From Candidatus Latescibacterota bacterium (lineage in GTDB: Bacteria > Latescibacterota > UBA2968 > SICM01), in assembly GCA_965217865.1 (NCBI GenBank), contig CBDCJO010000002.1:5152001-5216000 (forward strand): a stretch of DNA of 64,000 nt, given 5' to 3'. A program made the translations under genes and the position numbers. Shown here piece after piece: positions 33,958-39,922 of the stretch; positions within the stretch are counted from its first letter, which is position 1; the number at the start of each line of letters is the position of its first letter. The notes beneath the pieces are model-generated. The model did no database searches, was not told where the DNA came from, and saw only the letters and a list, made by a program, of their open reading frames with translations.

Positions 33958-34970
33958 ATGCAAACAATAGAGCGATATGATGCGATCATCATCGGCACGG
34001 GACAATCCGGACCTTCCCTGGCAGCGGACCTGGCCGACGCAGGAAAACGGGTGGCGATTATCGAGCGGGGGCGGTTCGGGGGCACCTGCGTGAATACCGG
34101 CAGCACCTGATCATCATCGGCGGGAGCTATATCGGGTTGGAGTTCGCTCAAATGTATCGGCGATTTGGCAGCGAGGTGACAGTCGTCGACAGGAATTCAC
34201 ACTTGATCGCAAGGGATGATGAAGACATTTCCGATGCGGTCCGCGACATCGTGGAAAACGAGGGGATCAACATCCGGCTAGAGGCTGAATGCATTACGGG
34301 GGAGAATCGGGGAGATCAGGTCCTGGTCAAACTCGATTGCGAGCGTGGGGACAGGGCGGTGGCCGGATCGCATCTCCTGCTTGCGGTTGGGAGGACGCCC
34401 AATACGCAAGACCTGGGGTTGGAAAAGGCGGGGATCGAAGTCGACGAGCGCGGTTACATTGTCGTGGATGACCAGCTCCGCACCAGCGTGCCCGGGGTCT
34501 GGGCGTTGGGCGACTGCAACGGGAAGGGGGCTTTTACCCACACTTCATACAACGATTACGAGATCGTTGCCGCCAATCTGCTCGAGGAAGATCCGCGCCG
34601 TGTGAGCGACCGTATCCTCGCCTATGCCCTGTACATCGACCCGCCGTTGGGACGCGTCGGGATGACGGAAGCCGAGGTCCGTAAGTCCGGGCGCAAAGCC
34701 CTGATCGGGAAAAGGCCGATGACGAAGGTGGCCCGGGCGGTGGAGAAGGGAGAAACACAGGGTTTTATGAAAATCCTGATAGATGCCGAGACCAAGGAGA
34801 TTCTGGGTGCGGCGATACTGGGAATCGGGGGGGACGAGATCATCCATTCGATCCTCGATATCATGTATGCCAGGGCACCATACACGGTGATCCAGCGAGC
34901 CATGCACATCCACCCTACGGTGTCAGAACTGATCCCGACTATGCTGGGCGAGCTCAAACCCCTGGAATAA
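33958..34970 (+). pseudogene. FAD-dependent pyridine nucleotide-disulfide oxidoreductase (RclA/MerA-like) with an internal frameshifting deletion
   Basis: MQTIERYDAIIIGTGQSG..GGTCVNTG is joined directly at about 34100 to HLIIIGGSYIGLEFAQ in another frame; the C-terminus ends HIHPTVSE. Confidence 0.85.
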
Positions 34971-35282: not shown

Positions 35283-36485
35283 ATTCTGTATTCACTTTCC
35301 AATTATCTCGGGAAGGTGGTGTTCGTCAACTTCATCGGGTGGAGTTGACCGCATTGCATCACGGACGGTCCGCCCGTGGAAAAGAACATCTGGCAGAGAT
35401 TTAAGGATGAGGAGTTCCAGGCCCTGGGCGTCGAGATATGGGATGGGGGGGCCGCAGATGTGAATAGATTTTTCGTTGGGCTTACGAAAACAACTTACCC
35501 CGTCCTGTTAAAGGGAGGCCGCGTTGGGGCCCAATATGGTGTGGATCGTGCCACTTACATGGTAATGGACCAGGAGGGCATCGTTCGTTACCGGTCGGAA
35601 GGGAGACTCGGGCAACGCTACGACGAAGAGACTCTGATTTCAGTTATTCAGATTCTGTTGACCCCGGCGAATACCCCCCCGCGTATCGTCAATCCAATAC
35701 CGGACCAGGGCGGGGTCGGGATCAATACCATCAGGATCGACCTGGAAGGTTTCGTAGAGGACACGGAGGAGGGTCCCGCCAATCTGAACTGGCACGCAGA
35801 TGGGTTCGATCCCGAACTGATCATTGTCGGAGGACAGATGTCTGCAGGTCCACTGAAGTTCACACCCAGGCAGGATGCGCTGGGTCGAAATTTCAACATC
35901 TTGTTGATCGTGACGGACAGCAAGGGGGCCACGGCGGAGCAAGAGATCGCGCTTCGTCGGCTTCCGGCCGTTTTGTCCATCTCATCGGAAAATTTGAACT
36001 TCGGAGATGTGTTTGTGGGTTCCTCCCAGACCCTGAAGTTGAAGGTGTCGAACGAAGCTGAATCCGACGGGGAGGACCTGACTGTCGATCTGGCTTCCGT
36101 CAGTCCGACCTTCAGCGTTCCGGGCTCATCGGTGACGGTTCCTGCGGGAGAGTCCCGGGAGATCTCGATCGTGTATCGGCCGACAGAGGCGATATCATCC
36201 TCCGGAGAGCTGACGTTTTTGACGAACGATCCGGACCGAGAGTCGTTTGGAGTGTCTTTAACGGGGGTGGGATTGACCCCTCTGGATCTCCAGGTGGCCG
36301 TCACGGATTCGGATTTCGACGGGGACGGAAGGATCGACTTCGACGATTTCTTTTTGTTCGCAGGGGCGTTCGGGGGAACGAATCCTCTGTTCGACCTGGA
36401 CAGAAGCGGTCGCGTGGACCTGGACGATTTGTTTATCTTCGCGACTGATTTCGGGAAGATGGCAAAACCAGACGATGGACGATAA
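35283..36485 (+). CDS. Selenoprotein redoxin (UPHC) + Ig-like + ASH/choice-of-anchor D + EF-hand/dockerin-like tail; 5' end truncated or frameshifted
   Basis: In-frame YSLSNYLGKVVFVNFIGWS-TGA(35346-48)-PHC continues into track ORF 35376-36485; paralog of 36845-38182; no clean start or signal peptide. Confidence 0.75.
35360..35378 (+). promoter_or_regulatory. SECIS-like hairpin
   Basis: CACGGACG-GTC-CGCCCGTG starts 11 nt after the UGA. Confidence 0.7.
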
Positions 36486-36844
36486 AACCCTTCCGCTCAT
36501 CCCCACCGGAATACAGAATACAGAAGACAGGAGTCAGAAGAAAACCTTAATTCAAATCAGTCGGCGAGACATGAGAGTTCAGACGTGAGACGTGAAACGG
36601 CAAAAGGCAGTAGCAGGTGGCAGTGGCAGGAATGGCAAAGGCAGGGGTCAGAAGTCGGAGGTCGGGGAAATCGTAGCTTCGACGGAGTTTATCCTGAGCT
36701 AGTCGAAGGGCTCAGGACGTGGCTTTCCCAGAACGGGAAGGGGAAAATGGCCGTTAATTTAGCAAAATGTCAACCACAAGGTCGGAGGAAATCGAAGATC
36801 GACTTTAGACCAGAACGAGTACCGATAAGGGAAAACGGTTCGGT

Positions 36845-38182
36845 ATGAAAAGGGTCATTTGGTTATTCATAGGGCTGGTCTTCTGGTCTGCAGGACCGAA
36901 CGCACCTGCCGTCTCCGCGGTGAGGGTTGGGGAAAACGCTCCGGATTTCACGTTGAAGGGGTTGGATAACAGGAATTATTCCCTGTCCGACTACCGTGGA
37001 AAGGTGGTGTTCGTCAACTTCTTCGGGTGGAACTGACCGCATTGTATAACGGACGGTCCGTCCGTTGAGAATAAAATCTGGCAGCGGTTTAAGGATCAGG
37101 AGTTTCAAGCCATCGGCGTTGATGTGTGGGACGGAAATCCGGATGGCGTAACGAAATTTTTCGTCGGGTTGACCAAGTCGACCTATCCGGTTCTAACCAA
37201 AGGCGGCCGGGTGGGGAGCCAGTACAGATTGGGCAACAATCACTTCATCGTTATCGATCAGGGGGGAGTTGTCCGATGGGTGTCGTCGGGAAGTCTTGGC
37301 AGTCGCTTCAATGAGAATGCCATCGTCTCCACCATCCAGTCTTTGCTTCCTCCTCCGAATACCCCACCAACCATCACCTCGTCGATTCCCGACCAGTCCG
37401 GTTCCGGGACAGAACCCATCGAGATCGACCTGGCTTCATTCGTTTCAGACGAAGAGGACGGCCCTCAAGATCTAATGTGGCGCGCCGAGGGATTCGATCC
37501 GGAGTTGATCGGGGTCACGGAAAATGGAACCGAAGGAGGGATGCTGAGTTTCACACCCAAGCCTGAGGTGCTGGGCCAGGATATTTCGGTTCTGTTGATC
37601 GTATCGGATACTCAGGGGGGTACCGCGGAGCAGTCGATCATCCTTCGGTGGACATTCCTGCCCGCGGTCCTGTCGGTCTCGATGGAGGATCTTAACTTCG
37701 GGAGCGTTTACGTCGGTTCCTCTCGGACTCTAAATTTGATCGTATCGAATGGAGCAGGTCCGGGTGGGGAGGACCTGGAAATTAGACCCTCCTCCGAGAG
37801 TTCGTCCTTCAGTATCGGGGACTCGTCCGTCTCGGTTCCGGCCGGAGAATCCCGGGAGATCTCAATCGTGTACCGGCCGATTGACGAGGTCATGTCTACC
37901 CACGAATTGACGTTCTTGACGAACGATCCCGAACACGAAGTGTTCGGGGTGTCCTTAACGGGATCGGGTCTGCCCCCGCTGGACATCCAGGTTGCTGTTT
38001 CGGATACTGATTTCGATGGGGACGGGAGGATCGATTTCGACGATTTCTTTATGTTCGCGGCGGCCTTCGGAGGAACGGATCCGGTTTTTGATCTGAATAA
38101 GAGCGGCCGTGTGGACTTCGACGATTTTTTTATCTTTGCGACTGACTTTGGAAAAATTGCGAAACCAGACGATGGACCATGA
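36845..38182 (+). CDS. Secreted selenoprotein: AhpC/TSA-TlpA redoxin (U64xxC) + Ig-like + ASH + EF-hand/dockerin-like tail (445 aa)
   Basis: Signal peptide, APDFTL..GKVVFVNFFGWN-TGA(37034-36)-PHC; the frame continues uninterrupted into track ORF 37124-38182. Confidence 0.88.
37048..37066 (+). promoter_or_regulatory. SECIS-like hairpin
   Basis: AACGGACG-GTC-CGTCCGTT perfect stem starting 11 nt after the UGA, with G in the loop. Confidence 0.8.
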
Positions 38183-38350
38183 AAGGCTGTCAAACGTGAG
38201 ACGTGAAACGGTAAAAGGCAGTAGCAGTAGCATGTGGCAGCAACATTCATTTGCCGGGAGAAGTAAAGTGATTTATATTATCGATAACCTCCTTCCCGTT
38301 CCTCATACCCTTGGGATTTCAAAATAGCCGGGTATCAGGAGGGCCGTCAA

Positions 38351-39259
38351 ATGCGGACAATGTTGATCGCTATTTCGACGATTCTGATCGGGTTCTCGGT
38401 TGCACAAGCATCCCCGTGGACATTGCCCAGGGGGGAGTTTTACGCACGGGGAACCGCCCTGGGTTCCCGATCCCGATGGCAGTTCAATAACGACTCGAAC
38501 AGGGTGAAGTTTCTGAATAATGGGCTCAGTCGAATGGTCGGGACTGCCGTCGACGGATCCTTCGGACTTCGTGATGACCTGATGGTCTCGATCGGAGTTC
38601 CCGTCATATTCTACGGTCTCCGGGATGATGATATCCAGGAGGAGGGTTTGAGCTTGGGGGATATCCGAATTTCAAGCCGATATCGTTTGTTTTCCAAAGG
38701 CCTGGTCGTGTCCCTGGAGGCGGGGGTGAAATTTCCCTCGGCCACACAGGTGGATCCTGCACGGGTACAGGTTGGTGAGGGGCAATACGACTTCGACGGC
38801 CTCGTTTCCTTCGGGTTTCTCTGGCCTTCAAAGGAAGGGTATTCAAGTATTGATGCGGGATATCGCATCCGCCGGAGGAGTGAGAAGACTGCGTTTAAAC
38901 CGGGAAATGAATTTATCTACCGGTTCGAAAGCGGATATCAGGCTGGCGACCGGGTTTCAATGCGGTTGAGCCTGGACGGATTCAAGAGTGAGATGGGGAA
39001 TACGGAGGTGTTCGGTGTTGCCGTTCCTACCCGCTTCTCAAATCGAAATCTCCTGGCGGTTGTGCCCGGCATCACACTGGCTGTAAAGGATAAACTTGGC
39101 CTGGATATGAACATCAACATCCCGGTTCTGGGACGGAACTATTATGCCGGAAGTCAGTTTTTTATCGGCCTTTCGTATAACAGCCTCGGGGTCCGGGCGT
39201 CGCTCAATCAATCTACCATCTCCGCTCCCCAGGGAGGATCGTGCTGCAGGATCCAGTAA
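38351..39259 (+). CDS. Outer-membrane beta-barrel 'transporter' (MetA-pathway/COG4313-like) with Cys-Cys C-terminal extension
   Basis: Signal peptide (AQA), alternating amphipathic strands, 'SLGDI', 'GEGQYD' and 'PGNEF' motifs; ends GGSCCRIQ. Confidence 0.65.
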   Translation: MRTMLIAISTILIGFSVAQASPWTLPRGEFYARGTALGSRSRWQFNNDSNRVKFLNNGLSRMVGTAVDGSFGLRDDLMVSIGVPVIFYGLRDDDIQEEGLSLGDIRISSRYRLFSKGLVVSLEAGVKFPSATQVDPARVQVGEGQYDFDGLVSFGFLWPSKEGYSSIDAGYRIRRRSEKTAFKPGNEFIYRFESGYQAGDRVSMRLSLDGFKSEMGNTEVFGVAVPTRFSNRNLLAVVPGITLAVKDKLGLDMNINIPVLGRNYYAGSQFFIGLSYNSLGVRASLNQSTISAPQGGSCCRIQ

Positions 39260-39315
39260 TCGGAAGGATTCCGGAGAAAATTTGTAGAAGGCAATTCATC
39301 AGATCGGAGGTTATT

Positions 39316-39843
39316 GTGAAGTTTCCAAAGGTGATGGTGATTCTTCTTTTAATCGGGATGTTCTCCGTGCTTGGGGCACCTGTCTGGGCAAAGCCGTCGG
39401 TCTCCCGGGGGGATACGCTCACGGATTTCTCACTGAAGAGCATCGACGGCAAGGCCTTCCGACTGAGTGAAACCTATGGCAATAAAAAGGGACTCATCCT
39501 GACGGTGGGTGCGAGCTGGTGAGGGACCTGCCGGGCGGAGGTCTCCATCCTGAAAGATGTTTATAAGAGTTATACTCCAAAGAATATCGAGATGCTGTAT
39601 ATCAGCGTGGAGAGCAGGGAAAAAGCATCCGCTTACGCGAAGAAGAAAGAACTTCCCTATACCGTGCTTGTTGACGAGAATGCGGCGGTTGCGAAGAAAC
39701 TGGGTGTCTCGGCCATCCCCGCCCATTTCATACTCGATGCAGAGGGAAAGGTCCTCTTCAGCAATGTCGGAAAGCTCAAGAACCACGAAAAGTTGCTGAA
39801 CGAGCTGGTGGCGGAATTAGAAGCCGATAAGGAAAAGGGCTAA
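39316..39843 (+). CDS. Exported TlpA/redoxin selenoprotein (U69GTC, 175 aa)
   Basis: GGAGG RBS + GTG, signal peptide, DFSLKSIDGK..GASW-TGA(39520-22)-GTCRAE continues into ORF 39592-39843 (GVSAIP..ILDAEGK). Confidence 0.88.
39523..39545 (+). promoter_or_regulatory. SECIS-like hairpin
   Basis: GGGACCT-G-CC-GGGC-GG-AGGTCTC stem-loop immediately after the UGA. Confidence 0.65.
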
Positions 39844-39867
39844 CCCGCATTCCTGCGTCTCCTTTCG

Positions 39868-39922
39868 AAAAAAAAGGGTTGTTGATCTCAGGCTGAACGG
39901 CCGGATGAACGCCCTTTTTTTT
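39868..39922 (+). terminator. Probable (bidirectional) intrinsic terminator closing the selenoprotein cluster
   Basis: A-run-GGG...CCC-T-run flanking an imperfect stem. Confidence 0.6.

What the first reader, a model, noticed from the sequence alone, without database searches (positions are those of the whole stretch)
35283..39922. Hidden cluster of three exported UxxC selenoprotein redoxins around an outer-membrane barrel
Seen: three thioredoxin-fold ORFs are each split by an in-frame TGA exactly at the first position of the CxxC motif (WS-U-PHC 35346, WN-U-PHC 37034, SW-U-GTC 39520). The frame continues cleanly each time and a hairpin follows each TGA. The four genes are co-oriented and closed by one terminator. 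Known: TlpA/AhpC-TSA proteins use CxxC, and Sec replaces the attacking Cys in bacterial selenoproteins. Inference: a dedicated envelope selenium-redox system that standard gene callers would fragment.
Basis: partly seen in the sequence, partly recalled or inferred. Interest (0 to 1): 0.88.

Follow-up and report, generated by a model that had tools for sequence, protein, structure and literature searches.

The report
Selenoprotein redox relay through outer membrane
Three genes that annotation software cuts at a stop codon very likely encode selenium-containing thioredoxin-like proteins (one copy has lost its start in this strain), and they flank a predicted outer-membrane pore whose conserved two-cysteine tail likely hands reducing power from the periplasm to the cell surface.

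Summary
Confirmed, with one correction. All three TGAs sit at the attacking-Cys position. The genome has selA/B/C/D, TGA is otherwise the commonest stop, and all 6 TGA-free homologues have Cys there, so these are very likely selenoproteins of two catalogued classes (Prx-like UxxC; UGC-TlpA). Gene 1 is not exported here: a 179-nt deletion removed its start, and intact alleles exist in other strains.

Relatives carry T9SS sorting tails; these carry dockerin-like tails. The family co-occurs with a DUF6029 barrel ending in CxxGxC (99 both, 5 redoxin only, 2 barrel only, 26 neither). This genome and its relative lack DUF6029; an unrelated FapF/COG4313-fold barrel with an invariant Cys-Cys tail sits there instead. 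Best model (about 45%): DsbD → Sec-TlpA → barrel tail → surface Sec-redoxin. Main rival: metal handling, since orthologous barrels also sit in mer-like operons. The scan noted the redoxin–barrel pairing before on other DNA (e1-9957785); the barrel swap is new here. Nothing is experimentally tested.

The parts
35289..36485 (+). Gene 1 remnant: Sec redoxin (UPHC) + Ig + ASH-type Ig + dockerin-like tail; paralogue of gene 2 (65% identical); start and N-terminus deleted in this strain
   Evidence: (dN 0.265, dS 1.535 against gene 2)
35288..35295 (+). 8-nt scar of a 179-nt deletion; other strains carry the missing piece between two copies of this repeat
   Evidence: (X2 record 4 versus record 5; X9 record 18; X8 loose ends)
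35346..35378 (+). Sec codon and SECIS-like hairpin of gene 1
   Evidence: p 0.063
36845..38182 (+). Gene 2, intact, 445 aa: signal peptide, AhpC-TSA redoxin UPHC without cis-Pro, Big_9-like Ig, ASH Ig, two-EF-loop dockerin-like tail
   Evidence: (pLDDT 90.4)
37034..37067 (+). Sec codon and SECIS-like hairpin of gene 2
   Evidence: z -2.25; p 0.003
38351..39259 (+). PF13557 outer-membrane barrel, predicted 12 strands, FapF/COG4313 fold, with signal peptide
39182..39256 (+). Low-confidence C-terminal tail of about 25 residues ending in a vicinal Cys-Cys (codons 39242-39247), invariant in close orthologues
   Evidence: (15 of 15)
39316..39843 (+). Gene 4, 175 aa: signal or anchor peptide plus TlpA/ResA-like Sec redoxin (W-U-G-T-C-R-A-E) with cis-Pro
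39520..39552 (+). Sec codon and SECIS-like hairpin of gene 4
   Evidence: p 0.077; G001 orthologue p 0.027
39868..39922 (+). Terminator-like A/U-flanked hairpin
   Evidence: not listed by the simple scan

Best explanation
The cluster encodes redoxins whose in-frame TGA very likely reads as selenocysteine, and these would form a thiol relay across the outer membrane: a likely periplasmic Sec-TlpA (gene 4), fed by DsbD, would reduce the Cys-Cys tail of the predicted barrel, which would reach through the pore and re-reduce a likely surface-tethered Sec-redoxin (gene 2; gene 1 is a truncated spare). Shown: codons, Sec machinery, Cys/TGA pairing, domain layout, gene order, tail conservation, co-occurrence pattern. 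Predicted: barrel fold, signal peptides. Inferred and untested: Sec incorporation (about 0.95), surface location of gene 2 (about 0.55), the tail as electron shuttle, DsbD as donor, and the final substrate (oxidised surface proteins or peroxides).
For: Sec: selA, selB, selD and tRNA-Sec all over cut-off. 144 of 150 listed family matches in the phylum contain a TGA (counted by eye); all 6 TGA-free homologues have Cys there. Surface: 4 of 4 orthologues with FlgD-like tails score over cut-off for the T9SS type A sorting domain. G000 has SprA and PorV-family genes and 9 cohesin hits, 3 ending in a T9SS-like tail. Module: among 132 class genomes, redoxin and DUF6029 barrel are both present in 99, redoxin only in 5, barrel only in 2, neither in 26; within 5 kb in 71 of 99. 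The DUF6029 barrel has an invariant C-terminal CxxGxC (10 of 10) and often a Cys-TlpA beside it. G000 and G001 lack it and are 2 of the 5 redoxin-only genomes; both have the CC barrel beside the redoxins. The two barrels show no detectable homology (hhalign probability 0.3%). The tail keeps two Cys even when spacing changes (14 CC and 3 CxxxC among 150 hits). The fold matches FapF, a polypeptide channel (E 6e-11). DsbD is present; MerT was not found in G000 (96% complete). The full four-gene order is kept in G001, another genus; redoxin-barrel adjacency also holds in L063 and L067.
Against: No experiment, and no RNA data. The window's redoxins have no T9SS signal, and their dockerin score is below cut-off (18.6-20.9 against 29 bits), so their route across the outer membrane is unknown. 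CC-barrel orthologues in L065 and G099 sit among MerR-like, MerT-like, HMA and CopZ-type genes with no Sec-redoxin. G099 has both barrels and no redoxin match. The other three redoxin-only genomes show neither barrel near the redoxin (two of them are fragmented). The swap rests on few, related loci: L063 is 87-95% identical to G001. A fourth paralogue in G000 stands alone among mobile genes. The tail is unresolved in the model (pLDDT under 50). Cys copies keep the hairpin (2 of 2), so the SECIS test does not discriminate.
Confidence: 0.45

Rival explanations
1. Soft-metal handling: the barrel admits or captures Hg(II)/Cu(I) with its Cys-Cys tail, the Sec-TlpA keeps that pair reduced, and the cis-Pro-less UxxC proteins bind metal at the surface.
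For: L065 has MerR-like, MerT-like and HMA genes, two CC barrels and a CopZ-N CC protein; G099 has HMA, CC barrel and CopZ-N. One library hit runs from a barrel into a MerT-like stretch (weak, E 0.008). 0 of 25 redoxins have the cis-Pro, which may normally prevent metal binding to CxxC (PMC2757866, passage). MerA's terminal Cys pair is a recalled precedent.
Against: No MerT in G000, and its two HMA hits lie elsewhere. No metal genes sit next to the cluster in G000, G001, L063 or L067. The MerR and MerT scores in L065 are below their cut-offs. This reading does not explain the DUF6029 co-occurrence.
Confidence: 0.25
2. Periplasm only: all the redoxins stay in the periplasm as ordinary thiol-disulfide or peroxide reductases, and the barrel is merely one substrate whose tail they keep reduced (for example to gate a small-molecule channel). 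No electrons cross the membrane.
For: No T9SS signal on the window's proteins. A 12-strand barrel has periplasmic termini (established). Closest folds are ResA, Bcp and AhpE. COG4313 (4RL8) is a channel match.
Against: Orthologues carry T9SS tails, and some cohesins do too. Two unrelated barrels with terminal dithiols accompany the same redoxin family.
Confidence: 0.25
3. The TGAs are nonsense mutations or reflect general recoding (Trp, Gly or Cys), so there are no selenoproteins.
For: Gene 1 is broken at its 5' end and the oxidoreductase upstream is broken, so the region tolerates decay. The hairpin test does not separate Sec from Cys copies.
Against: TGA is conserved at one codon across a whole class. 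The only TCA-anticodon tRNA is tRNA-Sec. TGA ends 973 of 1764 long ORFs. TGA aligned mostly to Arg in a paralogue test (24 of 54).
Confidence: 0.03

Closest known systems
Prx-like thiol:disulfide oxidoreductase selenoproteins (PF00578, UxxC) and redoxin family UxxC (PF08534), listed in PMC13188914 Table 1
   Same: AhpC-TSA domain, UxxC with Sec at the first position, downstream hairpin (genes 1 and 2).
   Different: Here fused to a signal peptide, two Ig domains and a dockerin-like tail (a T9SS tail in orthologues); no such architecture in the table rows I read; no NCBIfam model passes cut-off.
[quoted passage not shown]
   Same: Gene 4 has W-U-G-x-C, a cis-Pro loop and an N-terminal export or anchor segment.
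   Different: Motif is UGTC rather than UGC; 175 aa; 47 bits against a cut-off of 300 for NF041054.
DUF6029 barrel + TlpA + T9SS-tagged Sec redoxin module of other Latescibacterota (earlier finding e1-9957785; re-tested here)
   Same: Same redoxin family, a TlpA, and a barrel with two C-terminal Cys.
   Different: The barrel here is a 302-aa PF13557 protein with no detectable homology and a vicinal Cys-Cys; the TlpA is itself a selenoprotein; the redoxins are duplicated.
FapF (5O65) and COG4313 channel (4RL8)
   Same: 12-strand barrel fold (TM about 0.7).
   Different: 11-14% identity. The Cys-Cys tail is restricted to this subfamily (122 of 150 hits have no Cys in the last 14 residues).
DsbD/CcdA-TlpA relay, and the C-terminal Cys-Cys or Cys-Sec swinging arm of large thioredoxin reductases and MerA (recalled, from no call)
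   Same: Dithiol shuttles that carry electrons or metal between sites.
   Different: Those act across the inner membrane or in the cytoplasm and are not homologous; this is an analogy only.

Membership tests
Bacterial selenoprotein | In-frame TGA aligned with a conserved Cys of homologues | tested here: met
   6 of 6 Cys; PDB 2LS5 is the closest redoxin hit
Bacterial selenoprotein | selA, selB, selC, selD in the genome | tested here: met
Bacterial selenoprotein | SECIS hairpin just 3' of the TGA | tested here: inconclusive
   29 of 29 Sec sites z<0, 18 of 29 p<0.05; window sites p 0.063/0.003/0.077; 2 of 2 Cys copies also keep it
Bacterial selenoprotein | Selenium in the protein | not testable with these tools
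   needs 75Se or mass spectrometry
TlpA/ResA/CcmG (gene 4) | AhpC-TSA/Redoxin fold, xxC pair, cis-Pro loop, N-terminal export segment | tested here: met
   no named subfamily over cut-off
TlpA/ResA/CcmG (genes 1, 2) | cis-Pro before strand 3 | tested here: not met
   0 of 25 rows; the fold is still ResA-like
Peroxiredoxin (genes 1, 2) | PxxxT/SxxC motif and Arg at the cis-Pro position | tested here: not met
   motif is UxxC; Arg near that position only in some rows, not in gene 2
T9SS type A cargo (genes 1, 2) | C-terminal TIGR04183 domain | tested here: not met
   absent in the window; present in 4 of 4 FlgD-tailed orthologues
Dockerin | Duplicated Ca-loop-helix motif matching dockerin models | tested here: inconclusive
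   two loop-helix repeats; NF041540 below cut-off; PDB dockerin 2Y3N E 1e-5; cohesin binding untested
PF13557 / COG4313 / FapF barrels | Pfam over cut-off and 12-strand fold | tested here: met
DUF6029 barrel | PF19494 match or profile homology | tested here: not met
mer operon | merR, merT, merP, merA beside the genes | tested here: not met
   only a broken PRK06370-like oxidoreductase upstream

The most novel reading that the evidence does not exclude
Diderm bacteria possess a disulfide-reducing wire across the OUTER membrane (DsbD → TlpA → dithiol-tailed barrel → surface selenoprotein). It has been built twice from unrelated barrels (DUF6029, and the Cys-Cys FapF-fold barrel here), and it powers surface-displayed selenoenzymes.
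Probability: 0.35. Interest if true: 0.88.

Novelty: new variant of a known kind. Interest (0 to 1): 0.62.

Why it matters
How bacteria supply reducing power to thiols outside the outer membrane has no established answer that I know of (own knowledge). Two unrelated barrels, each ending in a conserved pair of cysteines, sit beside the same Sec-redoxin family in a largely complementary pattern. That names a concrete, testable candidate and suggests a function for DUF6029. Even if the relay is wrong, this is a class-wide selenoprotein family (104 of 132 class genomes) that public protein collections hold only as fragments, with export tags not listed in the catalogue rows I read.

Tried and rejected
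A naive genome-wide SECIS or read-through scan was too noisy to count the selenoproteome. My first reading of gene 1's 5' end as gradual decay was overturned by the contigs. The barrel is not PorV-like. No CC tail appeared among the tails printed for distant barrels. No PF13557 barrel lies within about 5 kb of the redoxin in 20 relative loci. No RNA holder was listed. Complex prediction (barrel with the Cys redoxin of G001) was not available, so binding is untested; the wide VIA-align search was not run. Haft and Tolstoy 2025 (PMC12013261) is not held; it describes selenoprotein neighbourhoods and could already cover this one. Literature searches: Latescibacterota + selenocysteine 0 papers; type IX secretion + selenocysteine 1 paper, listing only; DUF6029 1 paper listed, whose passages propose polysaccharide export; some searches gave listings with nothing on this module. 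Papers seen: PMC13188914 section 7 parts 1-2 of 3 plus passages; PMC9312934, PMC2757866, PMC9603273 and PMC13326102 passages only; no supplements were read. The search of earlier findings by sequence found nothing. Rows dropped: L031 was mis-oriented in alignment A3 and left out of later alignments; I left out G055 and four weak hits outside the class, and 20 unlisted matches could not be placed.
Full report
Observation. Genes 2 and 4 and the barrel have hydrophobic N-termini. Gene 2 is a 445-aa protein: AhpC-TSA domain, two Ig-like domains and a two-loop dockerin-like tail; its model has pLDDT 90.4 and matches 2LS5 and ResA. Gene 4 is a 175-aa TlpA-like protein. A terminator-like hairpin follows gene 4 (z -3.29). 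Co-transcription is not shown.

Selenocysteine. selA, selB, selD (itself with a TGA) and tRNA-Sec all score over cut-off, and tRNA-Sec is the only TCA-anticodon tRNA among 50. TGA ends 973 of 1764 long ORFs, and a paralogue test gave no Trp/Gly pattern (weak). The gene 1/2 family matches 108 of 168 phylum genomes; 144 of the 150 listed matches contain a TGA (counted by eye). All 6 TGA-free homologues aligned have Cys there, scattered among Sec rows on an unrooted tree, consistent with repeated Sec-to-Cys changes. A hairpin with a GG about 17-19 nt downstream is more stable than synonymous shuffles at 29 of 29 Sec sites (18 at p<0.05). Only gene 2 is significant in the window, and both Cys copies tested keep the hairpin. 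Public collections hold only downstream fragments.

Correction on gene 1. It has no start or signal peptide. Contigs show why. X1 matches the window. X2 holds both a 52-nt contiguous record and a 231-nt record with 171 extra letters between two copies of the 8-nt repeat at 35288-35295, at equal depth. X9 has the long form too. X8's loose ends show a Shine-Dalgarno-like end on one side and, read by eye, a peptide like gene 2's N-terminal strand on the other. The remainder shows purifying selection against gene 2 (dN 0.265, dS 1.535). So this is a recent, polymorphic 179-nt deletion. That the lost piece encodes a signal peptide is inferred.

Lineage and synteny. A member of the cluster of a 61%-identical barrel orthologue is named Candidatus Handelsmanbacteria (Latescibacterota by recall), although the record of the G001 contig is titled Gemmatimonas. 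G001, another genus of the same family, keeps the order Cys-redoxin, Sec-redoxin, barrel, Sec-TlpA. L063 and L067 keep redoxin(s) then barrel up to their contig ends.

The redoxins. 0 of 25 have the cis-Pro that gene 4 has, so they are not TlpAs by that feature. Tails are modular: dockerin-like here, and a T9SS type A sorting domain in 4 of 4 FlgD-tailed orthologues tested. G000 encodes SprA, PorV-family proteins and DsbD, 61 ORFs with the dockerin-like domain and 9 cohesin hits, 3 of which end in a T9SS-like tail. Surface tethering is therefore plausible, but the export route of a dockerin-only protein is unknown.

The barrel. It is PF13557, predicted as a 12-strand FapF/COG4313 fold with an unresolved tail of about 25 residues. 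The terminal Cys-Cys is invariant in 15 of 15 close orthologues (41-68% identity). Among the 150 best hits of a wide search, 14 have CC, 3 have CxxxC and 122 have no Cys in the last 14 residues. Only 3 of 168 phylum genomes carry the subfamily. In two loci it lies among MerR-like, MerT-like, HMA and CopZ-type genes with a TlpA-like gene nearby; G000 has no MerT.

The swap. Earlier finding e1-9957785 sent me to the redoxin's neighbours in relatives. There it sits by a roughly 520-aa DUF6029 barrel with an invariant C-terminal CxxGxC, and often a Cys-TlpA. Among 132 class genomes: 99 have both, 5 redoxin only, 2 barrel only, 26 neither; 71 of the 99 have them within 5 kb (kin are not independent). 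G000 and G001 lack DUF6029 and have the CC barrel beside the redoxins instead; the two barrels show no detectable homology. Against: the other three redoxin-only genomes show neither barrel near the redoxin, and G099 has both barrels, with a DUF6029 fragment on the same contig as the CC barrel, but no redoxin match.

Mechanism. The recurring trio (periplasmic TlpA, barrel with a terminal dithiol, export-tagged Sec-redoxin) is best read as an electron relay across the outer membrane (0.45). A tail of about 25 residues is long enough to span a barrel lumen, and swinging Cys-Cys arms are known from thioredoxin reductases and MerA (recalled). Rivals are metal capture (0.25) and a purely periplasmic role (0.25). 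No step of the relay is shown.

Novelty. Both Sec motif classes are catalogued (PMC13188914 Table 1, parts 1-2 of section 7 read). My searches found no paper on this architecture or module, but Haft and Tolstoy 2025 could not be read. Verdict: new variant of a known kind, interest 0.62; the relay reading has probability about 0.35 and would deserve about 0.88.

Noticed in passing
window 33958-34970 (+): PRK06370/RclA/MerA-like FAD oxidoreductase directly upstream is broken: 48-aa N-terminus, stop, about 135 residues missing; no close second copy in the genome. Not conserved at this place in G001, where the upstream gene reads like a carbon-nitrogen hydrolase by eye.
   Followed up: partly
L050 (G000:C2 about 4474500-4483900): Second redox cluster: multiheme cytochrome c, DUF255 thioredoxin protein, TlpA (CPPC), a second PF13557 barrel without the CC tail, two DUF3179 genes, arsenosugar ArsM over cut-off, and a TGA-containing DUF3179.
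   Followed up: partly
L051:6114-7454 (G000:C2:3522122-3523453): Fourth Sec-redoxin paralogue (UPDC), 89% identical to gene 2, standing alone among transposase-like and DNA-processing genes.
   Followed up: partly
G000:C2 4110522, 4319422, 1439694, 3955119: Further likely Sec codons recognised by eye (OsmC-like UxxT, AhpD-like CxxU, deiodinase-like, GHUSTC); not verified.
   Followed up: no
window 36579-36632 and 38190-38243: Intergenic repeat after genes 1 and 2; its core occurs 67 times in the genome.
   Followed up: no
L065:1096-9195 and G099:C452: mer-like operons containing one or two Cys-Cys-tailed barrels, a CopZ-N CC protein and a TlpA-like gene; a candidate outer-membrane component of metal resistance.
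   Followed up: partly
L067:2844-4172: Redoxin orthologue with a half dockerin tail, apparently a fusion of the two tandem genes by recombination between their dockerin repeats.
   Followed up: no
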